24,759 nt of DNA, from IMG/VR virus record IMGVR_UViG_2537561689_000015. The stretch is one strand, 5' to 3'. Origin of the DNA: a virus (Duplodnaviria; Heunggongvirae; Uroviricota; Caudoviricetes). Under the pieces are notes generated by a model. The model was not told the DNA's origin, searched no databases, and worked only from the letters and a program-made list of their open reading frames with translations. The translations under genes were made by a program, and so were the position numbers. Positions 3,970 through 24,202 of the stretch are shown piece by piece (positions within the stretch are counted from its first letter, which is position 1; each line of letters opens with the position of its first letter).

Positions 3970-4173
3970 TTACGGCGCTGTTTTAAGTCCTGCCGGGATT
4001 TCGTTATTATCCATGTGAATAACTTTATCGACCGGATAGCAGTTACCGGGGATTTTTTGTTCTGCTGCGGCAGCCATGCATTCTTTCATTGAACCGTAAA
4101 TGTCAATAACCATGTCAACAGGCTCGCCAGTATTAAGAAAAACAGTCAGAGTGAGGGCAATAGCAGTATTCAT
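3970..4173 (-). CDS. Hypothetical small protein with N-terminal hydrophobic segment
   Basis: Start taken at the internal ATG at 4173, preceded by AAAGGA at good spacing (ORF track extends to 4227). Hydrophobic stretch AIALTLTVFL near the N-terminus. The start overlaps the stop of the upstream ORF as ATGA. Confidence 0.45.
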   Translation of the reverse strand: MNTAIALTLTVFLNTGEPVDMVIDIYGSMKECMAAAAEQKIPGNCYPVDKVIHMDNNEIPAGLKTAP

Positions 4174-4358
4174 TGCCAGTATCCTTTTTGCATCGGGCGT
4201 AAACGTGCCAGCATTGAAAGAATGCATATTTTATTTAATAGCTCCCGTTCGTATTTTCTCTTATTAATGGCATCTTCAGTAAATACTGGGTTACTGATAG
4301 TGACACCAATTTCAAAACAACCTTCAGACGTATTGACGTTTGGTAATAACGTTTCCAT
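4170..4358 (-). CDS. Hypothetical protein (62 aa)
   Basis: Start taken at the internal ATG at 4358, preceded by GAGGA (track ORF 4170..4454). Its stop overlaps the start of the downstream gene (ATGA), suggesting translational coupling. Confidence 0.4.
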   Translation of the reverse strand: METLLPNVNTSEGCFEIGVTISNPVFTEDAINKRKYERELLNKICILSMLARLRPMQKGYWQ

Positions 4359-4547
4359 TATCGCGTCCTCAACAATGAATTTTGTGATGCGGTGCCTGGT
4401 GCCTCCAGGTGACGTTAACCAGTTAATAATTAACGCCGGATACAGAGAACCCACCCATAAGAACCAATACGGAAGTCAACTGGCCTTTTTAACTGTTCCG
4501 CGTGCGCTGAGCCGCATTCACCGCATCACAAAATTCACTTTAAAAGG

Positions 4548-4584
4548 GGCGGGTATCATGGGAAAAACAAAACGGATACCCGCC
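4548..4584 (-). terminator. Perfect 10-bp-stem hairpin, candidate leftward terminator or RNA structure
   Basis: GGCGGGTATC and GATACCCGCC form a perfect inverted repeat around a 17-nt loop. On the minus strand it is followed by CCTTTTAAA, which is only a short T-run. Confidence 0.3.
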
Positions 4585-4924
4585 AAAAGGTAATCAACAT
4601 GGGTTGTTGCAGCGGGATTGTCACTCAGGCGTATGGTCAACCTGACAACCCGGTGGACATTTGCGAGGAACGGAGAACCCCCGCCATACTTACCGCCGCG
4701 CCATTTCGCGGAGTGCCACAACCGGAAGCGCACGGTCGACGAAAATTTAACGACAGGCTATCTATGAACCAGCAACCTCGCCGTGCGCTTTCGCGTTATG
4801 CTCTGACTTTTCAGAGAAATATCCTTTCAGTAAACTGTCAGTGCCGGATGCTCACCCGTGTCCGGCGCACACACTCCACCTCACCCGTGGAGAACTCCTT
4901 AATTACCAACCCTCAGGAGGGTGA

Positions 4925-5158
4925 ATGTTAAAATCAACGCTTATTGCTAAATGCCTTTATCAAAATCGCATGGTAAGCAGCATTTCAATAGGCGAGTCTG
5001 CAGTTAAAAGTATTTTCGAAGAGTACTTTCCCGGGCATGATTTTAATAAATGGAATACCAAATTACCGCCAGCAGTTTCAACGCGTATTCTGAAAGCAAC
5101 TGAAAGAGCAAGTACAATTCGCGTTAACTATTTCATTAAAGATTTGTGGGATCTTTGA
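4925..5158 (+). CDS. Hypothetical protein (77 aa) in an AT-rich segment
   Basis: ATG preceded by AGGAGGGTGA. The gene is AT-rich compared with its flanks and is convergent with the 135-aa gene, with 23 bp of 3' overlap. No recognisable motif. Confidence 0.5.
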   Translation: MLKSTLIAKCLYQNRMVSSISIGESAVKSIFEEYFPGHDFNKWNTKLPPAVSTRILKATERASTIRVNYFIKDLWDL

Positions 5159-5543
5159 TATCCACAGAGCCTAAAGTATGTGCATATGGATGTGCTATTG
5201 TGCGCCCTCGCAGATTTGCATCATTTTCTAAATTCACTGAACGAAACAGGGCATCAACAAGGCTCTGTACAATGCAAAGGCAATCGAAGACTGTCGCCGT
5301 TTCTGTTTTGATTGATGAAAGAACATGGCCATTCACGCAAACAGAAATTACCCGTTTATTAACATCGCTTTCCTGCTTTTGATTATCAGAACCATATAGC
5401 CCTGAAAAAGCATTGCGCACATTACGAACCATATTATCGATGGTTTCTTTTTTGGTGTATGCCGGGTCAATTTTCACCAGACTATCACCGAGTGTCGTTG
5501 CAGCAATTATCTGGATTTCTTTTGGTAAATCTTTAAATTCCAT
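5136..5543 (-). CDS. Hypothetical protein (135 aa)
   Basis: ATG preceded by ACGAGG. AT-rich, and the last gene of the leftward early gene chain. No recognisable motif. Confidence 0.6.
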   Translation of the reverse strand: MEFKDLPKEIQIIAATTLGDSLVKIDPAYTKKETIDNMVRNVRNAFSGLYGSDNQKQESDVNKRVISVCVNGHVLSSIKTETATVFDCLCIVQSLVDALFRSVNLENDANLRGRTIAHPYAHTLGSVDIKDPTNL

Positions 5544-5565
5544 TATTAGCCTCGTTGGTTAACCA

Positions 5566-5813: not shown

Positions 5814-5942
5814 TCAGCCGTTAGATTTTGCCGGGCTGGAAAGCGCCTGTATAAACTCACTGAAGCTGAGAGTTTCTTCGCCTTTGGCAAGGCCTTCGAA
5901 GTATTCTTCGTAAGCCTTTTCCATGATTGTGTCGAAATCCAT
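5814..5942 (-). CDS. Hypothetical acidic mini-protein (42 aa)
   Basis: Not in the ORF track because it is under 60 aa. Hand translation gives MDFDTIMEKAYEEYFEGLAKGEETLSFSEFIQALSSPAKSNG. Preceded by GGTGAG, and it begins one codon after the stop of the upstream 55-aa ORF. Confidence 0.4.
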   Translation of the reverse strand: MDFDTIMEKAYEEYFEGLAKGEETLSFSEFIQALSSPAKSNG

Positions 5943-5943
5943 A

Positions 5944-6109
5944 TCACTCACCTGAGTTTCTTTCCAGCCAGCGACGGGCACCATTTTCGGTTTTAAACGT
6001 TTTGCTTTTGGTATACGTCATCGCGGTGAACGTGCCGTCCTGGTTGGGAAACACGCCGTACACCAGAGATTCGTTGTTACCAAGATCGATAGTATCCATG
6101 TTGACCTCA
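5944..6109 (-). CDS. Hypothetical protein (55 aa), first gene of the leftward early operon
   Basis: Start taken at the internal ATG at 6109, preceded by GAGG. The track start at 6204 would lie inside the predicted pL promoter and operator, so it was rejected. Confidence 0.45.
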
Positions 6110-6175
6110 TTTCCCCTTAACGCCGGGTAGCGGAACTGTTTGCTGAGAACACCGTGCGGTGTCTTGATGGGTGGT

Positions 6176-6228
6176 AATTTAGTTTTCTCATGAGTGTTGG
6201 TCAAGTGCTTTTAATGAGAAAACTCAAT
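6176..6228 (-). promoter_or_regulatory. Predicted leftward early promoter (pL-like) with operator repeats (OL)
   Basis: On the minus strand: TTGACC (plus 6199-6204), a 17-bp spacer, then TAAATT (plus 6176-6181). Operator-like TGAGAAAACT(C/A)AA copies lie at about 6178-6191 (minus orientation) and 6215-6227 (plus orientation); the first sits in the promoter spacer. Confidence 0.5.
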
Positions 6229-6288
6229 ATTTAATGCAAAATAAAGCCAATACATTGAAATGTAAGGCTTTAAAATTTGTGAAGGGGA

Positions 6289-6696
6289 TTACTGATGTTT
6301 GTTACGTTTGCGAGCTTCTAGTAGCTCGGTGAATAGGCGATTAAAATTCTCAACGCGGGCACGGAGTTCGCTGATTTGTGCTTGCTGCTCTGATTTTGGA
6401 AGTGCGCGATACAATCGCAACATCTCCAACTCATCTTCCGATAAGTCTAAGGCGCTGTTGAGTGCAACTGGTGGATCTGGTGTTTTATCCTCGTCACCAA
6501 ACAGTATCCAAGTTGGTGAACATTGCAATACCTCAGCCAGGCGATGCAAATTTTGCCCACGCGGGGCTGTATGGTCGCTTTCCCATAGTGAAATTGATGA
6601 GCCAGATACGCCAGCGGCTTTGCTTAAATCGTTTTGACTTAAACCAACCTGTTTGCGTCTTTCTCTAATTCGTTGACCTAAAGTTTTCTCGTTCAT
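6289..6696 (-). CDS. Prophage repressor, XRE/cI-type helix-turn-helix, without a peptidase domain
   Basis: 135 aa. N-terminal HTH region (QRIRERRKQVGLSQNDLSKAAGVSGSSISLWE) followed by a helical C-terminus. Too short to carry a LexA/S24 autocleavage domain. Divergent from the Cro-like gene. No Shine-Dalgarno sequence before its ATG, so it may be leaderless. Confidence 0.85.
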   Translation of the reverse strand: MNEKTLGQRIRERRKQVGLSQNDLSKAAGVSGSSISLWESDHTAPRGQNLHRLAEVLQCSPTWILFGDEDKTPDPPVALNSALDLSEDELEMLRLYRALPKSEQQAQISELRARVENFNRLFTELLEARKRNKHQ

Positions 6697-6714
6697 ATTT
6701 AGATATCTTAATAA

Positions 6715-6761
6715 CCCTTGACTTGAGATTCCTTGAGTGATTACTATTGAGAAAACTCAAT
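6715..6761 (+). promoter_or_regulatory. Predicted rightward early promoter (pR-like) with operator repeats (OR)
   Basis: TTGACT at 6718-6723, an 18-bp spacer, then TACTAT at 6742-6747. Operator TTGAGAAAACTCAA at 6747-6760 overlaps the -10 and start region. Further TTGAG half-sites at 6723 and 6733. Confidence 0.5.
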
Positions 6762-6773
6762 TTTGGAGGGGTG

Positions 6774-7001
6774 ATGTTTAAATCAGACGTAATTAATTTT
6801 TATGGGACGAAAGCCAAAGTAGCGAAAGCTGCTGGTGTTGATCCATCTGCTGTTTCTCAATGGGGGGAACTGGTTCCTGAAGGTCGCGCGATGCGCCTGC
6901 AAGAGGCATCCGACGGGGAACTTCAGTACGACCCCAAAGTTTATGACGAATATCGTAAGGCAAAGCGGGCGGGGCGGTTGAACAATGAAAATCACCCCTG
7001 A
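6774..7001 (+). CDS. Cro-like small DNA-binding regulator (YdaS-like family)
   Basis: Start taken at the ATG at 6774, preceded by GGAGGGG (the track start at 6747 is a TTG inside the promoter). HTH-like segment with the VSQW motif common to Cro/YdaS-type proteins. Divergent from the repressor. Confidence 0.7.
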   Translation: MFKSDVINFYGTKAKVAKAAGVDPSAVSQWGELVPEGRAMRLQEASDGELQYDPKVYDEYRKAKRAGRLNNENHP

Positions 7002-7506
7002 ACAGGTTTGTGAGGCTCTGGATGCCTGGGTATGTCGACCAGGAATGACACAGGAGCAGGCGACGATATTAATCACGGAAGCATTCTGGGCTCTGAAAGA
7101 ACGCCCGAACATCGATGTTCAACGCGTCACGTTTAATGATGGCGAGGTTGATCAACGGGCGCTGGGCGTTAACCGGGTGAAGATATTCGAACGCTGGAAA
7201 GCTATCGACACCAGGGATAAGCGGAAAAAATTCACGGCGCTGATTCCGGCAATTATGGAGGCTATCCGGATTAATGATTTCAGGTTGTATCGTGAAATTA
7301 CTGACGGAAAAAGCATTACGTACATGATCGCCGGGTTAAATAAAGAATATGGCGATGTGGTGGAATCCGGACTGCTTTTTGCAGATCCAGCTGTAGTGGA
7401 TCGTGAAACTGACGAACTTATAGAAAAAGCAATTGCTTTCAAGCTTGCGTATCGACAGCAATACCAACAAAAAGCTGGATGGAATTATGAGTCTTCTTTT
7501 TGCTGA
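6985..7506 (+). CDS. YdaT-like protein (proposed CII-type regulator family)
   Basis: 173 aa, immediately after the Cro-like gene and before the O-like gene, the position YdaT occupies in Rac-type prophages. Overlaps both neighbours. Assignment by position and general resemblance, not a verified alignment. Confidence 0.7.
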   Translation: MKITPEQVCEALDAWVCRPGMTQEQATILITEAFWALKERPNIDVQRVTFNDGEVDQRALGVNRVKIFERWKAIDTRDKRKKFTALIPAIMEAIRINDFRLYREITDGKSITYMIAGLNKEYGDVVESGLLFADPAVVDRETDELIEKAIAFKLAYRQQYQQKAGWNYESSFC

Positions 7507-11322: not shown

Positions 11323-11533
11323 AAACGGTTTGCGGGGAAATCTTAGTTAAGTAGAATGACTGTGGGTGCTTGAGGCTATCTGTCTCAGGCATGAACACCA
11401 AAAGGCAGATAGAGAAAAGCCCCAGTTAACATTACGCGTCCTGCAAGACGCTTAACATTAATCTGAGGCTCAATCCATGCTGAACACATGTAGGTTAGCC
11501 TCTTACGTGCCGAAAGGCAAGGAGAAGCAGGCT

Positions 11534-11689
11534 ATGAAGCAGCAAAAGGCGATGTTAATCGCCCTTATCGTCATCTGTTTAACCGTCATAGTGACGGCAC
11601 TGGTAACGAGGAAAGACCTCTGCGAGGTACGAATCCGAACCGGCCAGACGGAGGTCGCTGTCTTCACAGCTTACGAACCTGAGGAGTAA
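11534..11689 (+). CDS. hok: Hok/Gef-family type I toxin (small membrane toxin)
   Basis: 51-aa product MKQQKAMLIALIVICLTVIVTALVTRKDLCEVRIRTGQTEVAVFTAYEPEE, which I recognise as Hok-family (closest in my memory to HokD/RelF). Strong AAGGAGAAG Shine-Dalgarno. An in-frame upstream extension from 11477 may be a Mok-like leader reading frame. Structured leader and a terminal hairpin as in hok mRNAs. Confidence 0.85.
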   Translation: MKQQKAMLIALIVICLTVIVTALVTRKDLCEVRIRTGQTEVAVFTAYEPEE

Positions 11690-11757
11690 GAGACCCAGCG
11701 GGGGAGAAATCCCTCGCCGCCTCTGATGTGTCAGGCATCCTCAACGCACCCGCACTT

Positions 11758-11778
11758 AACCCGCTTCGGCGGGTTTTT
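11758..11778 (+). terminator. Rho-independent terminator after hok
   Basis: AACCCGCTTCGGCGGGTTTTT: a GC-rich stem with a TTCG loop and a T-run. Confidence 0.6.
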
Positions 11779-11904
11779 CGTCGCATTATGAGGTTGTAAT
11801 TTTAGCTACCATGAGACTATCCTAAGGATCTCAAACAGATCTATTTTGTATCAAATTTGGTGCATGGCTTTGCCAATAATCGGAAAACAAAAGGACTCAT
11901 TAGT

Positions 11905-12084
11905 ATGAGCTGCCCACTCAAAAAACACACGCGGTTGAGTATTCCGCCTCGCGATAAAAGCGTTGTGGCAGTCCCTCGCCCAGTGATTGATGAAAACTGC
12001 GCACATCGTGAACAAGTGAAAAATGCTTTTGATTTCGGTTTTTCTCGTTATGAGAAAGCCATGGAAGAACTTTCAAAAGTGTAA
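11905..12084 (+). CDS. Putative antitoxin partner of the Doc-family toxin (59 aa)
   Basis: Start taken at the ATG at 11905, preceded by AAGGA (track 11857). Immediately upstream of the Doc-like gene, the usual antitoxin position. Not Phd-like by eye. Inverted repeat GATCTCAAACAGATC lies in the upstream region. Confidence 0.5.
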   Translation: MSCPLKKHTRLSIPPRDKSVVAVPRPVIDENCAHREQVKNAFDFGFSRYEKAMEELSKV

Positions 12085-12102
12085 TGATGGGTATTGTACT
12101 CT

Positions 12103-12588
12103 ATGGCTGAGATTGTTGAAGGAGTGCATTACCTTACGGTTGATGATCTTGTTGAAATCAATCATTCCCTAATTGAATTACAGACGCCAGATGAGCCCGT
12201 TGGTGTTCTGAGTCCAGATAACTTAAGTTCTTCTCAGGCCCGTCCCAGCATGGTTCGATGGTATGAACAGACTAATGACATGTTTGTACTGGCATCGGTA
12301 TTGATTGAAAGTCTGATTCAGAATCATCCGTTTGCTAATGCGAACAAACGAACAGCTATGATGGCTGGTTACGTCTTCTTGTTGTTGAATGGCTATGAGT
12401 TAACAGCACCAGGCGATGAAATCGTGGAAATGGCAGAGGGACTGGCCTGCAAAACCTATACTCGAGAAGATCTCGAGAACTGGTTGTGTTATTGGTCTCG
12501 CGCGTATGACAGCCGGGAATTATGTAAAACAAGCGCAACTATTGTTTTGTATGAAACTATCAAGCTTAAAATAGAACAGCAAAACTAA
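12103..12588 (+). CDS. Doc/Fic-family toxin (Doc-type kinase motif)
   Basis: Motif HPFANANKRTAMMAG fits the Doc-type signature HxFx(D/N)(A/G)NKR. Start taken at the ATG at 12103 (track starts at a TTG at 12094). AT-rich gene. Confidence 0.8.
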   Translation: MAEIVEGVHYLTVDDLVEINHSLIELQTPDEPVGVLSPDNLSSSQARPSMVRWYEQTNDMFVLASVLIESLIQNHPFANANKRTAMMAGYVFLLLNGYELTAPGDEIVEMAEGLACKTYTREDLENWLCYWSRAYDSRELCKTSATIVLYETIKLKIEQQN

Positions 12589-12604
12589 AGGTGCTTCCAA
12601 TGAA

Positions 12605-12627
12605 AACCCGCTTCGGCGGGTTTTTTA
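12605..12627 (+). terminator. Rho-independent terminator after the Doc-family gene
   Basis: AACCCGCTTCGGCGGGTTTTTT: the same hairpin sequence as the terminator after hok. Confidence 0.6.
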
Positions 12628-12785
12628 TTTTAATGGACTAAATTTTAGCCAATTCTTCTATTTAACCGACCAGGGTTTGTTGATTAGCTGGTATGCCTGA
12701 CTAGAATCGATGCACTTAAGTAGCGCGCAGGGAGAAGAGGGATGGACCCCAAACAGGGGAGTGCTATTTATCTGGAAGGATTCTG

Positions 12786-13049
12786 TTGATGAAAATCAGA
12801 GAATTACGTGAAATTTTTAGTGAAGATGGCCTCTATACTGTGCGCGTTGAGAATGGCGCAATTGTCAGCCACTGCCGTATTAAATGTTTACAGTCTCAAC
12901 AAAGGAAGAGTGGAGCTGCGTTAATTCATTTGGTGGATGGGCTTGTGACGGATGGTTTTATTTTGCGTGCAAATGAATTTGTCACATCGTTGCCGTCTCT
13001 GAAAGAAGCTGGGATTAAGGCTGGTTTTTCTGCTTTTGAAGATGAGTGA
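12786..13049 (+). CDS. Hypothetical protein (87 aa)
   Basis: ATG preceded by GGAAGGA. No recognisable motif. Confidence 0.5.
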   Translation: MMKIRELREIFSEDGLYTVRVENGAIVSHCRIKCLQSQQRKSGAALIHLVDGLVTDGFILRANEFVTSLPSLKEAGIKAGFSAFEDE

Positions 13050-17127: not shown

Positions 17128-17203
17128 GGCCCTTTAGCTCAGTGGTGAGAGCGAGCGACTCATAATCGCCAGGTCGCTGGTTCAAATCCAGCAAGGGCCA
17201 CCA
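17128..17203 (+). tRNA. tRNA with CAU anticodon (Ile2/lysidine-type or Met)
   Basis: Hand-folded cloverleaf: acceptor GGCCCTT/AAGGGCC, D-stem GCTC/GAGC, anticodon loop CTCATAA, T-loop TTCAAAT, 3' CCA encoded. Resembles the ileX/ileZ-type tRNA of E. coli. Confidence 0.85.
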
Positions 17204-17210
17204 TCACATA

Positions 17211-17287
17211 CCGCCATTAGCTCATCAGGATAGAGCGCCAGCCTTCGAAGCTGGTTGCGCGGGGTTCGAGTCCTCGATGGCGGTCCA
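17211..17287 (+). tRNA. tRNA-Arg (anticodon UCG)
   Basis: Hand-folded cloverleaf: acceptor CCGCCAT/ATGGCGG, anticodon stem CCAGC/GCTGG with loop CTTCGAA, T-loop TTCGAGT, CCA encoded. Confidence 0.8.
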
Positions 17288-17300
17288 TTATCTGTACCCT

Positions 17301-17377
17301 GCGTTGTTAGCTCAGCCGGACAGAGCAATTGCCTTCTAAGCAATCGGTCACTGGTTCGAATCCAGTACAACGCGCCA
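17301..17377 (+). tRNA. tRNA-Arg (anticodon UCU)
   Basis: Hand-folded cloverleaf: acceptor GCGTTGT/ACAACGC, anticodon stem ATTGC/GCAAT with loop CTTCTAA, T-loop TTCGAAT, CCA encoded. Confidence 0.8.
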
Positions 17378-19037: not shown

Positions 19038-19208
19038 TCGCCTGTAAGAGCAGAATATTTTGCTGAAAAATGAAGGATGCGCCAGCGTCCGGTAAGCATG
19101 AAATTCTGTGTTTGTGGCTACTCAATAAAATAAATTCTTTCTGTCGCCGCGAATACTCAAATGTTGATCAGTGCCCGGTGCGGCGACGGGCTTCGATATC
19201 AGGAGACG

Positions 19209-19604
19209 ATGATGGAAAAAACAGAAAACAAACCGATTGTAATTGGTGCTGATGCTGCTCCGTTTAAGTTTGAGTTGTCTCAACTGGTGGAGATGCGTAT
19301 CAGTGATGAATGGGGTGAGGTTAAAGCCCGCGCGCAGTATGCGGATGGCGAAAACCAGTACTTGATCCACTACAAAGCAGCTGATGGTCGCGCCACGACG
19401 GAGTGGTTTGGTGAGTCAATGCTGGAAGCAACAGAAGATGATCGTCATCCGGGTTGTCCGGTATTTGCCGGTATGAAATTACCGGAAGGTGCAGTTGAAC
19501 TGCAGCCGGGTGAGGTGTTCGTAATGACAGACATCATTGATGGTAAACCGCAGTATTCGCGTATTGAAATGAATAGTAAGAGTGCTCGCCTGATTCGTGA
19601 GTAA
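19209..19604 (+). CDS. Hypothetical protein (131 aa)
   Basis: ATG preceded by AGGAGA (track 19161). No recognisable motif. Followed immediately by a 14-bp-stem hairpin. Confidence 0.6.
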   Translation: MMEKTENKPIVIGADAAPFKFELSQLVEMRISDEWGEVKARAQYADGENQYLIHYKAADGRATTEWFGESMLEATEDDRHPGCPVFAGMKLPEGAVELQPGEVFVMTDIIDGKPQYSRIEMNSKSARLIRE

Positions 19605-21586: not shown

Positions 21587-23158
21587 TTACTGAGAGCTCA
21601 GATCAACTTTCCAGGGCAACAGATCGCGTACCCGGTTTGCCGGCCAGTCCTGGATATGTTCAATGACGTAACGCAGCCACTTTTCTGGCTCCACATTGTT
21701 CAGACGGCATGTGCCGATCAGCGAGTACAACACCGCCGCATGTTCACCACCGCTGTCGGAACCCGCGAACATCCAGTTTTTCCGGCCTACGGCCACTCCC
21801 CGTAAGGCGTTCTCTGCGATGTTGTTGTCGATTTCCACCCAGCCATTACTGCAGTACACGTTCAGTGCATCCCACTGTTTCAGCAGGTATGCGAACGCTT
21901 TTGCCGTATCTGAGTGACGCGACAGTGTTTTCATCTGTTGCTGTATCCAGTCATACAGTGACTGCATCAGTGGCGCGGCTCTGGCTTTTCTTGCCGCCAG
22001 ACGCTGTTCTGCTGAACAGCACCGGACCTCTGCCTCGATGGCATACAGTTCACCGATACGCTGCAGGGCTTCCGTGGTGATGTAGGTGGGCGCTCTTGCA
22101 TGCACATCGTGGATTTTTCTCCGGGCATGAGCCATACACGCGGCTTCCGTTATTCTGCCGGATTCGTATAACGCCCGGTAACCACCGTAAGCATCGGCCT
22201 GAAGCACACCGCTGTAACCGGCCAGGTGATTTTGTGGATGGATACCTTTCCGGTCCGGACTGTACGCGAACCAGACCGCCGGGGGCATCTGTGAACCGGC
22301 GTTACGGTCATCACGGACGTAGACCCACAGCCGGGCTGTCCGGGTTTTACCGCTGCCCGGCTCCTGGACCGGGACGGGGATATCATCAGCATGGACTTTA
22401 CCGGGCATCAGCACATACTGGCGCAGGACGTCATACAGCGGCTCCAGTAGTTCAGCAACGGCACCTGTCCAGCGCCCCAGTGTGGCACGGCTCAGCTCCA
22501 CACCCTGACGGCGGTATATCTCTGACTGGCGGTATAACGGCAGATGGTCTGCATATTTCCCGGTGACGACATGGGCCAGGAGCCCCGCTCCGGCATAACT
22601 GCGTGCAATGGGTTTTGAAGGTACTGGTGCCTGCACGATATGGTCGCACCGACAACAGGCCAGTTTCGGACGTTGTGTTTCGATAACCTTAAAGGCGCTG
22701 CTGATAAGCTCCAGTTGCTCTGACACATCACATCCCAGAGAACTGAGTTCACCACCACAGGCAGGACAGCATTCCTCTTCCGGCCGGATAACCCGGGTTT
22801 CACGGGAAAGTGAGGCCGGTAACGGTTTACGGGCTGAAGACTGGCGCAGGGCGGATGGCAGTACCGGGTCATATTGCTCACCCAGCGTTTCCGCCATTTC
22901 TTCCTGAAGTGCGCTGATTCGCTCCTGTGCTTCCTGTATCTGCCGTTCGGTTTTTGCACGAAGTTTTTCTGAGCTTTTACCGAACTGCATACGTTGCAGT
23001 TTCGCAACCAGCGCCTTCAGCCGGTTGATTTCGGAAGCATAAGCCGCCACCCGCTGTGAGAGCAGGCGGTTGTATTCAGCCATCTGGCGTATGGTGTCCT
23101 GTTGCGTCTGCAACAGTGCCCGCAGGCGGGCGTTCTCATGAGCAAGTGAGGTGTCCAT
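21587..23158 (-). CDS. tnpC: IS66-family transposase (TnpC/Orf3)
   Basis: 523 aa with an N-terminal coiled-coil or leucine-zipper region and a Cys-rich zinc motif (CPACGG...CCRC), the typical size and layout for IS66 transposases. Confidence 0.9.
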
Positions 23159-23177
23159 ATCCTCACTTTACAACGGG

Positions 23178-23525
23178 TTATATGCGGATTCCAGCGCGTT
23201 CCGTTCGTTTCGGGTGCTTCCAGTTGATACCTTCAAGAAGCATGGATAACTGAGCCGGAGTAAGGTGCACCTTGCCGTCACGGGTGACTGGCCAGACGAA
23301 GCGGCCCCGCTCCAGGCGTTTGGTGAAGAGGCACAGTCCGTCACTGTCAGCCCACAACACTTTTATCTGGTCACCCCGGCGTCCGCGGAAGATGAACAGG
23401 TGTCCGGAGAACGGGTCATCCTTCAGGACGTTCTGAACTTTTGATGCCAGGCCGTTAAAGCCATTTCGCATATCGGTGATACCTGCAACCAGCCAGATAC
23501 GCGAACCTGCAGGGAGAGATATCAT
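23178..23525 (-). CDS. tnpB: IS66-family accessory protein TnpB (Orf2)
   Basis: 115 aa, between the Orf1 and transposase genes. The sequence MISLPAGSRIWLVAGITDMRNGFNGL is characteristic of IS66 Orf2. Confidence 0.9.
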   Translation of the reverse strand: MISLPAGSRIWLVAGITDMRNGFNGLASKVQNVLKDDPFSGHLFIFRGRRGDQIKVLWADSDGLCLFTKRLERGRFVWPVTRDGKVHLTPAQLSMLLEGINWKHPKRTERAGIRI

Positions 23526-24202
23526 CAGTGGCTGCTCCCTTTTATTTCGCGGATAAGTGTCTGTAATAACGCCGGCGTCAGTTTACCTTTAAGCCTGAGA
23601 GTTCCGGCCGGCAGAACCAGCTCACAACACAGACTGTCGGACGGTGTATTTATCTGCTCTGGTTCCTGTGCGGGGGCCGGGATTTTATTATCCGGCTCCG
23701 GCGTTAACGTCACGGGAAGCAGTGCCGGCATATTTTTTCCGGAAGGCAGCAGGCCACCTTTCCGGTATTGATGGCGCCAGTTGAAGAGCAGGTTATCGTT
23801 GATTCCGTTTTCCCGGGCGATCTGCGCCACACAGGCTCCGGGCTGCAGTGACTGCTCCACTAAGGCGATTTTAAACTCATAAGGGAAGTTGGGCCGCCGG
23901 GGACGTTTTTTTACCACGGGGGCTTCGGATATAACGGTGCTTTCAGGACGTACGACTGGTACCGTGGAAAATTGTCCGTAAAGGCAGGCATCAAGTTCCT
24001 GCTCCGACATGCCTGCGGGCAAAGGCCACGAAAGGCCAGCTCTCCGAAAGCGCACGAACATACTACAAACAGTTGATTTTGGTACACCCAGGCGACGCCC
24101 GGCCACAACCCGGGGTAAATGTTCTTCAAAGTGAAGACGTAAAGCTTCAGTGATCCAGGTCCGGTGTTTCATACGATAGTGTCCATTAAAAATGATGGAC
24201 AT
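23525..24202 (-). CDS. tnpA: IS66-family accessory protein TnpA (Orf1); start uncertain
   Basis: Track ORF of 225 aa; the true start may be internal (for example the ATG at 24172). HTH-like region. Its stop overlaps the TnpB start. Confidence 0.75.
   Translation of the reverse strand: MSIIFNGHYRMKHRTWITEALRLHFEEHLPRVVAGRRLGVPKSTVCSMFVRFRRAGLSWPLPAGMSEQELDACLYGQFSTVPVVRPESTVISEAPVVKKRPRRPNFPYEFKIALVEQSLQPGACVAQIARENGINDNLLFNWRHQYRKGGLLPSGKNMPALLPVTLTPEPDNKIPAPAQEPEQINTPSDSLCCELVLPAGTLRLKGKLTPALLQTLIREIKGSSH

What the first reader, a model, noticed from the sequence alone, without database searches (positions are those of the whole stretch)
6176..6776. Immunity switch with a short non-cleavable repressor, reconstructed operators and promoters
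The repressor is only 135 aa, an HTH plus a helical tail with no S24 peptidase domain, so RecA-mediated autocleavage is unlikely and induction presumably goes through another route such as an antirepressor. A 13-14-bp operator-like sequence TGAGAAAACTCAA occurs three times: twice at the left promoter (one copy in the spacer of a TTGACC-17-TAAATT promoter on the minus strand) and once over the -10 and start of a TTGACT-18-TACTAT rightward promoter. The repressor ATG has no Shine-Dalgarno sequence.
Basis: partly seen in the sequence, partly recalled or inferred. Interest (0 to 1): 0.5.

Follow-up and report, generated by a model that had tools for sequence, protein, structure and literature searches.

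The report
DicA/DicC-type prophage immunity switch

Summary
Window 6176-6776 holds a 135-aa HTH-only repressor gene (6289-6696, minus strand). A leftward promoter (TTGACC-17-TAAATT) and a rightward promoter (TTGACT-18-TACTAT) flank it, and the palindrome ATTGAG-AAAA-CTCAAT marks both.

- The repressor scores as a full-length DicA (NCBIfam) and the Cro-like protein as DicC.
- The window differs at only 3 bases from an E. coli chromosome, where it is a prophage. About 15% of complete E. coli genomes carry the same immunity region.
- The right-hand control region aligns at the DNA level with P22 OR1-OR2-OR3, PR and PRM.
- The PRM-like promoter lies 8 nt from the start codon, which fits the missing Shine-Dalgarno. 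K-12 dicA mRNA is known to be leaderless.
- The operator cores are invariant in Buttiauxella and Citrobacter relatives whose flanks have diverged. Five other immunity types carry their own palindrome at the same position.
- There is no S24 peptidase domain. A homologue of Rem, the DicA antirepressor, lies 6 kb to the right, with its own promoter-like site and no LexA box.

Verdict: a new member, with its own operator specificity, of a known kind. Interest is low.

The parts
6289..6696 (-). Repressor gene (DicA family), 135 aa. A P22 C2-like five-helix HTH domain (residues 6-66), a linker, then a helical C-terminal tail (helices 79-83, 87-98, 101-134).
   Evidence: ORF. Pfam HTH only. NCBIfam DicA, 238 bits. 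56% identity to K-12 DicA. 47% identity to P22 C2 over residues 1-72 only. AlphaFold2 pLDDT 85. Foldseek rmsd 0.8-1.1 A to the P22 C2 N-terminal domain bound to operator.
6746..6761 (.). Main right operator (equivalent to Oc of Qin and OR1 of P22): perfect palindrome ATTGAG-AAAA-CTCAAT. It overlaps the end of the PR -10 and the expected start point.
   Evidence: Same position as K-12 Oc, which DicA binds in vivo (PMC3441716), and as P22 OR1. The core TTGAGAAAACTCA is invariant in the Buttiauxella and Citrobacter relatives.
6722..6737 (.). Weak middle site (equivalent to Om / P22 OR2): CTTGAG-ATTC-CTTGAG. One good half-site. It overlaps the PR -35 and contains the PRM -35.
   Evidence: One mismatch to TTKAGN4CTYAA. 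Aligns with P22 OR2, ACTAAAGATTCCTTTAGT. The left half is conserved and the right half varies in relatives.
6697..6712 (.). Site next to the repressor start codon (equivalent to Oa / P22 OR3): ATTTAG-ATAT-CTTAAT, 12 of 16 matches to the main operator. It contains the PRM-like -10.
   Evidence: (palindrome I5). Aligns with P22 OR3. Immunity-specific counterparts sit at the same place in types B, C and D. Largely invariant in relatives.
6718..6747 (+). Rightward early promoter (PR / dicCp equivalent): TTGACT-18-TACTAT. It drives cro/dicC, the CII-like ydaT gene and the replication genes.
   Evidence: Scan. The -35 TTGACT is identical in P22 PR and in five of the six immunity types compared (phiES15 has TTGACA). 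The -10 keeps TA...T in relatives (TAGCAT, TAGTAT, TAAACT).
6705..6733 (-). PRM-like maintenance promoter for the repressor: -35 AGGAAT (6733..6728), 17-bp spacer, -10 TAAGAT (6710..6705), with 8 nt between the -10 and the ATG. The predicted transcript has a leader of about 3 nt, so it is effectively leaderless.
   Evidence: Same hexamers and spacing as the annotated P22 PRM, whose RM transcript starts 4 nt before the c2 ATG. ATCTTA is invariant in relatives. K-12 dicA mRNA is leaderless by differential RNA-seq (PMC4681348). The start point in this window is inferred, not measured.
6774..7001 (+). Cro-like gene (DicC family), 75 aa, with a GGAGG Shine-Dalgarno at 6766-6770.
   Evidence: Pfam P22_Cro 6e-18. 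NCBIfam DicC, 164 bits against a cut-off of 130. 69% identity to K-12 DicC.
6176..6204 (-). Leftward early promoter (PL / dicBp equivalent): TTGACC-17-TAAATT. It drives ydfA-ydfB-ydfC ... dicB, exo, xis and int.
   Evidence: Scan. K-12 has TTGACC-17-TAATCT at the same place. GTCAA is invariant, and the -10 reads TAA..T in relatives. Downstream genes.
6177..6192 (-). Left operator 1: CATGAGAAAACTAAAT on the minus strand. It overlaps the -10 and the proximal spacer of PL.
   Evidence: The core TTAGTTTTCTCA is invariant in HannyBb, Buttiauxella and Citrobacter while the flanks diverge.
6213..6228 (+). Left operator 2: AATGAGAAAACTCAAT, just upstream of the PL -35 and 36 bp centre to centre from left operator 1.
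   Evidence: The core TGAGAAAACTCAA is invariant in relatives. K-12 has two sites 35 bp apart in the same arrangement.
6237..6279 (-). Terminator-like hairpin followed by a U-rich run, just after the repressor stop codon.
   Evidence: Folding gives -12.3 kcal/mol, z = -2.2. The sequence is conserved in HannyBb and mEp460, and partly in more distant relatives. This is weak evidence. The consensus terminator scan did not call it.
12789..13049 (+). Homologue of rem, which encodes the antirepressor of DicA; 86 aa. It lies outside the immunity region.
   Evidence: tblastn against K-12 Rem: 69% identity, E 5e-34. Alignment. 96% DNA identity to genes annotated rem in PPompW phages. K-12 Rem derepresses dicBp 165-fold (PMC10448788).
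12602..12707 (+). Upstream region of rem: an intrinsic terminator (12602-12625), then the promoter-like site TTGATT-16-TAGAAT (12680-12707). No LexA box.
   Evidence: The terminator and TAGAAT are conserved in K-12, mEp460 and HannyBb. There is no CTG-N10-CAG between 10071 and 13223.

Best explanation
This is the immunity (lysis-lysogeny) switch of a lambdoid E. coli prophage, of the DicA/DicC type found in prophage Qin.

The repressor is a 135-aa protein. Its N-terminal domain is a close homologue of the P22 C2 DNA-binding domain. In place of the S24 self-cleaving domain it carries a short helical tail.

Proposed mechanism:
1. The repressor, presumably as a dimer, binds 16-bp palindromes of the form (A)TTGAG-N4-CTCAA(T). 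The central A-tract is probably read indirectly, as in P22.
2. One strong site (6746-6761) covers the start point of the rightward promoter and shuts off cro/dicC, the CII-like gene and replication.
3. Two sites (6177-6192 and 6213-6228) bracket the leftward promoter and shut off the ydfABC...dicB-exo-xis-int operon.
4. The repressor gene is transcribed from a weak PRM-like promoter (AGGAAT-17-TAAGAT) as an essentially leaderless mRNA. By analogy with K-12 DicA, bound repressor stimulates this promoter.
5. The weaker sites at 6722-6737 and 6697-6712 are the counterparts of P22 OR2 and OR3. The second contains the PRM -10, so it is the likely place where the Cro-like protein, or excess repressor, turns repressor synthesis off. 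That would make the switch bistable.
6. The repressor cannot cleave itself, so induction is expected to go through the small antirepressor encoded at 12789-13049 (the Rem homologue). Rem would bind the repressor and remove it from DNA.
7. The antirepressor gene has its own promoter-like site and no LexA box. Its trigger is therefore probably not the canonical SOS route and remains unknown.

Shown here: the sequence features, their statistics, family membership, homology to P22 OR, conservation of the sites, and absence of S24.
Inferred: DNA binding, dimerisation, the start points, autoactivation, Cro action at the promoter-proximal site, and the Rem-repressor interaction.
For: Family:
- NCBIfam DicA 238 bits (cut-off 101) and DicC 164 bits (cut-off 130), both full length.
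- 56% identity to K-12 DicA and 69% to K-12 DicC.
- Gene context is ydfA (DUF1391), ydfC, dicB and a RecE-like exonuclease on the left, and CII-like YdaT plus O- and DnaC-like genes on the right.

Operators:
- 4 hits against 0.36 expected, with 0 of 100 shuffles reaching that.
- The type-A 16-mer occurs 4 times in each of three type-A immunity regions and never in the other five immunity regions (four other types). Each of those carries its own palindrome at the same offset; a sixth type, Klebsiella, was read by eye and also carries its own palindrome there.
- In the Buttiauxella (76% identical repressor) and Citrobacter (72%) relatives, the invariant blocks of the control DNA coincide with TTAGTTTTCTCA, TGAGAAAACTCAA, TTGAGAAAACTCA and the promoter hexamers. 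Mean column identity of the left region is only 76%.
- The K-12 site at the same position (Oc) was shown in vivo to bind DicA, to repress dicC and to activate dicA (PMC3441716).

P22 homology:
- Window 6694-6776 aligns with P22 OR3-OR2-OR1 at 59 of 87 identical columns. The score is 75, against shuffles of 22 +/- 6.8.
- The PRM hexamers are identical to those in the annotated P22 record.
- The modelled HTH domain superposes on P22 C2 bound to operator at 0.8-1.1 A.

No autocleavage:
- No S24 hit at E<=10, with a positive control.
- The alignment to C2 ends at residue 72.
- Of 178 homologues at E<=1e-10, the 120 listed are mostly 130-136 aa (a few longer calls or fragments) and none carries Peptidase_S24; their Pfam hits are HTH-type DNA-binding families.

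Leaderless transcript: K-12 dicA (PMC4681348).

Antirepressor:
- A Rem homologue is present.
- Rem function in K-12 and the Gifsy precedent are published.
Against: - Nothing here was tested biochemically for this immunity type.
- In K-12, DicA did not bind the Om and Oa sites in an in vivo assay (PMC3441716). The roles given to 6722-6737 and 6697-6712 are therefore speculative.
- In K-12, spontaneous and urea-induced switching of dicBp did not depend on Rem or RecA (PMC10448788). Rem may not be the main physiological route.
- The promoter scan count equals chance expectation.
- The prophage in this genome has an IS66 element inside its terminase gene. The module may now act as a domesticated regulator rather than as phage immunity.
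- The C-terminal tail has no confident structural match, so dimerisation and the Rem contact surface are unverified.
Confidence: 0.85

Rival explanations
1. The module is no longer a phage immunity switch. It would be a domesticated host circuit, as argued for Qin in K-12, that keeps the toxic leftward operon (dicB and neighbours) silent. It would flip stochastically or in response to stress (temperature, urea, nucleoid proteins), with Rem playing little part.
For: The prophage is probably defective, because IS66 interrupts the terminase gene. In K-12, dicBp switching was independent of Rem and RecA, and DicA binding depends on temperature and is antagonised by Cnu/H-NS. dicB is present in the window.
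Against: The same immunity region, with identical operators, occurs in the phages HannyBb and mEp460_ev081; mEp460_ev081 is described as a functional temperate phage, and HannyBb is a deposited complete phage genome. Integrase, excisionase, replication, lysis and rem genes are intact in the window. This reading also keeps the same operator and repressor mechanics, so it concerns biological role rather than mechanism.
Confidence: 0.3
2. The repressor is inactivated by RecA-stimulated self-cleavage, like lambda CI or P22 C2. The short length would be an annotation or truncation artefact.
For: The N-terminal 72 residues are 47% identical to P22 C2. An Ala-Gly dipeptide exists at residues 28-29.
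Against: There is no S24 domain at E<=10, although the P22 C2 control is found at 8e-32. The ORF cannot be longer, because 135 aa is the maximal ORF. The 120 homologues listed across Enterobacterales are mostly 130-136 aa and none carries Peptidase_S24. The Ala-Gly lies inside the HTH. Related Gifsy repressors are not cleaved on induction.
Confidence: 0.02
3. The repeated motif is a chance or compositional feature of AT-rich promoter DNA, not a protein-binding site.
For: The 13-mer with up to 3 mismatches is not enriched window-wide (12 hits against 8.3 expected). One further 3-mismatch 16-mer hit lies in an unrelated coding region at 19269-19284. A half-copy inside the repressor gene (6677-6692) is not conserved in relatives.
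Against: At the 16-mer level, 0 of 100 shuffles reach the observed count. The cores are invariant across relatives whose flanks have diverged. Heteroimmune relatives substitute their own palindromes at exactly the same positions. The positions are homologous to experimentally defined operators in K-12 and P22.
Confidence: 0.03
4. The cro-like and CII-like genes form a YdaS/YdaT toxin-antitoxin pair, and the HTH protein is their regulator rather than a phage repressor.
For: Pfam names: YdaS_toxin (E 1.7e-4) and YdaT_toxin (E 1.2e-5).
Against: The YdaS hit (21.8 bits) is below the Pfam cut-off of 30, whereas P22_Cro scores 64.8 bits and NCBIfam DicC 164 bits. PHROG assigns the 173-aa protein to CII-like activators at 6e-41. 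The literature treats YdaT as a functional equivalent of CII (PMC9986795).
Confidence: 0.03

Closest known systems
DicA-DicC-Rem module of the cryptic prophage Qin, E. coli K-12
   Same: - Repressor length is the same (135 aa) and its tail is conserved; identity is 56%. DicC identity is 69%.
- The genes are divergent in the same way, with about 80 bp between them.
- A strong palindrome sits directly after the -10 of the cro/dicC promoter.
- Two sites 35-36 bp apart bracket the -35 of the leftward promoter that drives ydfA...dicB.
- The repressor mRNA is leaderless (measured in K-12).
- A rem gene lies beyond the replication genes, behind a conserved terminator and a TAGAAT -10.
   Different: - Operator specificity differs: ATTGAG-AAAA-CTCAAT here, TTGTTAG-TTATGA-CTAACAA in K-12. 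The recognition helix differs to match: SGSSISLWE here, SHVSVSQWE in K-12.
- The rem allele is a different variant (69-73% identical protein).
- No dicF was detected here.
- The prophage sits at a different chromosomal site, next to potC.

Gifsy-1/-2/-3 repressors (GfoR, GtgR, GfhR) and their antirepressors, Salmonella
   Same: A short repressor of about 136 aa without a cleavage domain. An antirepressor gene lies outside the immunity region, downstream of the replication genes, and is preceded by an intrinsic terminator. Antirepressors act across heteroimmune repressors. Here, likewise, the two rem variants are shuffled among three operator specificities.
   Different: The Gifsy antirepressor genes carry a LexA box and so respond to SOS. 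No LexA box was found upstream of rem here or in K-12.
Phage P22 immC region (c2 - OR/PR/PRM - cro)
   Same: [quoted passage not shown]
- The control DNA is homologous: 59 of 87 columns are identical, with the same TTGACT PR -35 and the same AGGAAT-17-TAAGAT PRM.
- Three sites lie 24-25 bp apart, and the maintenance transcript is nearly leaderless.
- Cro belongs to the P22_Cro family.

   Different: P22 C2 is 216 aa, with an S24 domain that mediates both oligomerisation and RecA-stimulated cleavage. Here a 65-residue helical tail replaces it. Half-sites are TTGAG rather than TTAAG. Only the OR1-equivalent site is a strong palindrome. The left operator has two separated sites instead of three adjacent ones.
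SinR-SinI of Bacillus, and arbitrium-phage repressor with a small antirepressor (PDB 1b0n, 9iaq, 9sf2)
   Same: The overall logic is the same: an XRE-type HTH domain plus a C-terminal helical oligomerisation domain, inactivated by a small protein that binds it rather than by proteolysis (weak full-length Foldseek hits).
   Different: Only the HTH domain aligns well. The full-length alignments have rmsd of about 8-10 A, so the tails are not shown to be homologous. This is an analogy in mechanism, not family membership.

Membership tests
DicA/DicC (Qin-type) immunity module | Repressor matches the curated DicA model over its full length, above the cut-off | tested here: met
   NF007257: 238.3 bits against a cut-off of 101, residues 1-135 of 135. 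56% identity to K-12 DicA.
DicA/DicC (Qin-type) immunity module | A divergently transcribed DicC-family Cro protein | tested here: met
   NF007282: 163.9 bits against a cut-off of 130. Pfam P22_Cro 6e-18. 69% identity to DicC.
DicA/DicC (Qin-type) immunity module | An inverted-repeat operator over the dicC promoter (Oc) and related sites at the leftward promoter in front of ydfA...dicB | tested here: met
   The palindrome lies at the same offset as K-12 Oc. Two copies bracket the leftward -35. ydfA (DUF1391), ydfC and dicB lie downstream.
DicA/DicC (Qin-type) immunity module | The repressor binds the operator, represses dicC and dicB promoters, and activates its own promoter | not testable with these tools
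   Shown for K-12 DicA only (PMC3441716; PMC10448788).
DicA/DicC (Qin-type) immunity module | Leaderless repressor mRNA | tested here: inconclusive
   There is no Shine-Dalgarno. A -10-like TAAGAT lies 8 nt from the ATG, identical to the P22 PRM -10 and invariant in relatives. The 5' end is measured only for K-12 dicA and P22.
Non-cleavable repressor with antirepressor (Gifsy / Qin Rem class) | A repressor of about 135 aa without an S24 domain or cleavage site | tested here: met
   No S24 hit at E<=10, with P22 C2 as a positive control. The alignment to C2 ends at residue 72.
Non-cleavable repressor with antirepressor (Gifsy / Qin Rem class) | An antirepressor gene outside the immunity region, behind a terminator | tested here: met
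   The Rem homologue at 12789-13049 is 69% identical to K-12 Rem (E 5e-34). The terminator is at 12602-12625.
Non-cleavable repressor with antirepressor (Gifsy / Qin Rem class) | The antirepressor promoter is under LexA control (a LexA box); this defines the Gifsy, 186 Tum and N15 AntC subclass | tested here: not met
   There is no CTG-N10-CAG anywhere between 10071 and 13223, and none in the aligned K-12, mEp460 or HannyBb upstream regions.
Non-cleavable repressor with antirepressor (Gifsy / Qin Rem class) | The antirepressor binds the repressor and releases it from DNA | not testable with these tools
   Shown for GftA-GtgR. For K-12 Rem the evidence is genetic only.
Lambda CI / P22 C2 / LexA-type self-cleaving repressors | A C-terminal Peptidase_S24 domain with a Ser/Lys dyad and an Ala-Gly cleavage site in the linker | tested here: not met
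Lambda CI / P22 C2 / LexA-type self-cleaving repressors | An N-terminal HTH domain and a tripartite OR with divergent PR and PRM | tested here: met
YdaS/YdaT toxin-antitoxin | Match to the YdaS_toxin model above the Pfam gathering score | tested here: not met
   21.8 bits against a cut-off of 30. The P22_Cro model scores 64.8 bits.

The most novel reading that the evidence does not exclude
Induction of this widespread prophage class is not wired to the SOS response.

The rem antirepressor gene has its own promoter-like site (TAGAAT -10, conserved in the five relatives aligned) behind a terminator. It has a conserved leader of about 75 nt and no LexA box. The two rem alleles are shuffled among at least three operator specificities.

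This leaves open that an unidentified non-SOS signal acts at the rem promoter or leader. It also leaves open that one Rem can induce several heteroimmune DicA-type prophages at once, by recognising the conserved repressor tail.
Probability: 0.35. Interest if true: 0.45.

Novelty: new member of a known kind. Interest (0 to 1): 0.15.

Why it matters
The value is mainly for annotation. The work gives base-level coordinates for operators, three promoters and the antirepressor gene in an immunity type present in about 15% of complete E. coli genomes (797 of 5426) and in at least two phages. RefSeq labels the repressor only as "helix-turn-helix domain-containing protein".

It shows that the DicA-type control region descends at the DNA level from a P22-like OR, with the cleavable domain replaced by a helical tail.

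It also yields a set of six repressor/operator specificity pairs that could be used to study how HTH specificity changes.

It does not change how such switches are understood. The one open biological question it touches is what turns on rem.

Tried and rejected
- Intragenic motif copy at 6677-6692 (repressor codons 2-6; 3 mismatches in the 13-mer). I considered it as an autoregulatory site and rejected it. Only one half-site matches, and GAGAAAACT is not conserved in Buttiauxella (GAAATGACG) or Citrobacter (GAGATAACT), although the true operators are invariant there.\n- Motif-like hits at 19112-19125 and 19269-19284. Their number is consistent with chance and one lies inside a coding region.\n- LexA box upstream of rem. 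None was found.\n- Structured RNA in the rem leader. RNAalifold on six variants gave 22 pairs, none with a compensatory change, a covariation term of +0.5, and part of the 'stem' is the -10 itself. There is no support for a structure.\n- An upstream ORF coupled to rem. It is present in the window but is cut short by a stop codon in K-12, so it is not conserved (read).\n- A CII/YdaT-activated establishment promoter, searched with the published YdaT site TTGATT-N6-AATCAA. There is no enrichment (14 hits against 16 expected).\n- dicF. It was not found by Rfam at the gathering or E-value threshold, nor by blastn with K-12 dicF.\n- Single-sequence AlphaFold2 model. Confidence was too low (pLDDT 62). 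It was replaced by a model built from a 43-sequence alignment (pLDDT 85).\n- Structural match for the C-terminal tail. Foldseek gave only HTH-domain matches and poor full-length superpositions.
Full report
**What is there**

The window differs at only 3 of 24,759 bases from E. coli strain 504237, chromosome positions 1592279-1617037. It is a lambdoid prophage inserted next to potC.

- To the left of the finding lie integrase, excisionase, a RecE-like exonuclease, dicB, ydfC and ydfA (DUF1391).
- To the right lie a CII-like (YdaT-family) gene, O-like and DnaC-like replication genes, hok/sok, a Doc/Fic toxin, rem, Q-region genes, three tRNAs and lysis genes.
- The terminase gene is interrupted by an IS66 element.

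A 1.2-kb query spanning the immunity region (window 5900-7100) is found over at least 80% of its length in 797 of 5426 complete E. coli genomes. It is about 91-92% identical in phages HannyBb and mEp460_ev081.

**Check of the observation**

- The repressor ORF (6289-6696, minus strand) is 135 aa and cannot be longer.
- TGAGAAAACTCAA is exact at 6215-6227 and 6748-6760. It has one mismatch on the minus strand at 6178-6190.
- The complete unit is the 16-bp palindrome ATTGAG-AAAA-CTCAAT (6746-6761). Allowing up to 3 mismatches it occurs 4 times, against 0.36 expected, and none of 100 shuffles reaches that count. Three of the four copies sit at the two promoters.
That count equals the shuffle expectation, so the promoters rest on the comparative evidence below.
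- No Shine-Dalgarno precedes the repressor ATG.

**Identity**

The repressor matches NCBI's curated DicA model over its full length (238 bits, cut-off 101). The Cro-like protein matches the DicC model (164 bits, cut-off 130). Identity to K-12 DicA is 56% and to DicC 69%. In the repressor the differences cluster in the helix-turn-helix, while the C-terminal tail is conserved.

The first 72 residues are 47% identical to the P22 C2 DNA-binding domain. An AlphaFold2 model from a 43-sequence alignment (pLDDT 85) shows:
- a five-helix HTH domain (residues 6-66),
- a linker,
- helices at 79-83, 87-98 and 101-134.

The HTH domain superposes on P22 C2 bound to operator DNA at 0.8-1.1 A. The tail has no confident structural match.

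**Operators and promoters**

Three independent lines support the operator assignment.

*1. Homology to defined systems.* Window 6694-6776 aligns with the annotated P22 OR3-OR2-OR1 region at 59 of 87 columns. The score is 75, against shuffles of 22 +/- 6.8. The two regions share:
- the PR -35 (TTGACT),
- the PRM hexamers (AGGAAT-17-TAAGAT),
- three sites with centres 24-25 bp apart.

The K-12 site at the position of 6746-6761 is Oc. Oc was shown in vivo to bind DicA, to repress dicC and to activate dicA (PMC3441716).

*2. Specificity swaps.* Six immunity types were compared: the window type, K-12 Qin, PPompW, Rac-442/2, phiES15 and a Klebsiella prophage. Each carries its own palindrome at the same offset after the cro -10. 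In the five types whose left-hand region was available (the Rac-442/2 record ends just beyond its repressor gene), related sequences flank the leftward -35; in PPompW these fall below the 25%-mismatch cut-off. The repressor recognition helices differ in parallel. The window's 16-mer occurs four times in each region of its own type and never in the others.

*3. Phylogenetic footprint.* The Buttiauxella and Citrobacter prophages have repressors 76% and 72% identical to the window's, with nearly the same recognition helix. In them the control DNA has diverged (76% mean column identity on the left side). The following blocks nevertheless stay invariant:
- TTAGTTTTCTCA,
- TGAGAAAACTCAA,
- TTGAGAAAACTCA,
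- the -35 hexamers,
- the PRM -10.

The -10 positions of PL and PR keep the TA...T pattern.

A half-copy inside the repressor gene (6677-6692) is not conserved, so I set it aside.

**The missing Shine-Dalgarno**

The PRM-like -10 (6710..6705) lies 8 nt from the ATG. By analogy with the mapped P22 RM transcript, which starts 4 nt before the ATG, transcription would start about 3 nt upstream. K-12 dicA is one of five E. coli mRNAs found leaderless by differential RNA-seq (PMC4681348). The start point in this window is inferred.

**Induction route**

The repressor gives no S24 hit even at E<=10, while P22 C2 gives 8e-32. Of 178 homologues at E<=1e-10 across Enterobacterales, the 120 listed are mostly 130-136 aa and none carries Peptidase_S24.

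The published record agrees:
- DicA lacks the Ala-Gly site, resembles the Gifsy repressors, and is derepressed 165-fold by Rem (PMC10448788).
- Gifsy repressors are not cleaved. Antirepressors bind them and strip them from DNA (PMC3121763).

The window encodes a Rem homologue at 12789-13049 (69% identity to K-12 Rem, E 5e-34). It lies behind a conserved intrinsic terminator and a promoter-like site whose -10 (TAGAAT) is conserved.

Unlike the Gifsy antirepressor genes, it has no LexA box. This matches the statement that the trigger for Rem is unknown.

The window's rem allele is 96% identical to that of the PPompW phages, which have a different operator specificity. The K-12 allele, in turn, accompanies the window's specificity in mEp460 and HannyBb. 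Rem therefore probably recognises the conserved part of the repressor, not its DNA-reading surface. That is an inference.

**Caveats**

- No binding, start point or protein interaction was measured for this immunity type.
- K-12 DicA did not bind Om or Oa alone, so the roles I give to the two weak sites are speculative. Cro binding at the promoter-proximal site is the most likely role, by analogy with OR3.
- K-12 dicBp also switches independently of Rem and RecA.
- The prophage is probably defective, so the module may now serve the host.

**Verdict**

However, the region is a typical DicA/DicC/Rem-type immunity switch, a class described for Qin and Gifsy prophages.

What is new here:
- the operator sequence of this particular immunity type,
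- the base-level map,
- the clear DNA-level descent from a P22-like OR.

Novelty: a new member of a known kind. Interest: 0.15.

Noticed in passing
window 12626-12788: The region between the terminator and the rem start codon is conserved across rem variants whose coding DNA is only about 75% identical to the window's. It includes an invariant TAGAAT and the block GCGCGCAGGGA.AAGA.GGATGG. There is no LexA box, no repressor operator and no covariation-supported RNA structure. What controls rem is unexplained.
   Followed up: partly
window 4359-5565: dicB is present (4170-4358, minus strand), but no dicF sRNA was detected between ydfC and dicB by Rfam or by blastn with K-12 dicF. In its place are an unannotated 135-aa ORF (5136-5543, minus strand; no Pfam hit) and a sub-threshold match to the Salmonella sRNA family STnc100 (4381-4535, minus strand; 33.5 bits against a gathering score of 47).
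   Followed up: partly
window about 21587-24202: An IS66-family element (ISCro1, with its tnpA, tnpB and transposase genes) interrupts the large terminase gene. This copy of the prophage is therefore probably unable to package DNA.
   Followed up: partly
window 11364-12588: Two addiction-type modules sit between the replication genes and rem. One is hok/sok (sok RNA at 11364-11539, 119 bits; hokD at 11534-11689). The other is a Doc/Fic-family toxin (12103-12588), preceded by a 59-aa ORF (11905-12084) with no family hit that may be its antitoxin.
   Followed up: no
window 17128-17374: Three tRNA genes in a row (annotated Ile, Arg, Arg in the matching RefSeq record), just upstream of the lysis genes.
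   Followed up: no
window 19112-19125 and 19269-19284: Two operator-like sequences (TTGTGGCTACTCAA and GTTGAGACAACTCAAA) lie 158 bp apart, around the start of a hypothetical gene (19212-19604). Their number is within chance expectation.
   Followed up: partly
L001 6393-6851 (phage HannyBb): The HannyBb repressor is annotated as 152 aa, starting from an upstream in-frame ATG inside the main operator. mEp460 carries the same sequence but is annotated at 135 aa. An N-terminally extended repressor form made on induction was reported for Gifsy-3 (GfhR*). In the window a stop codon excludes this extension.
   Followed up: no
L015 (Klebsiella oxytoca-type prophage), control regions flanking the repressor gene at 1201-1608: A sixth DicA-family immunity specificity, with the recognition helix SYATISLWE and operators of the form TTGTTTAAAGTTCTTAACAA. 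Its half-sites are close to the P22 TTAAG half-site.
   Followed up: no
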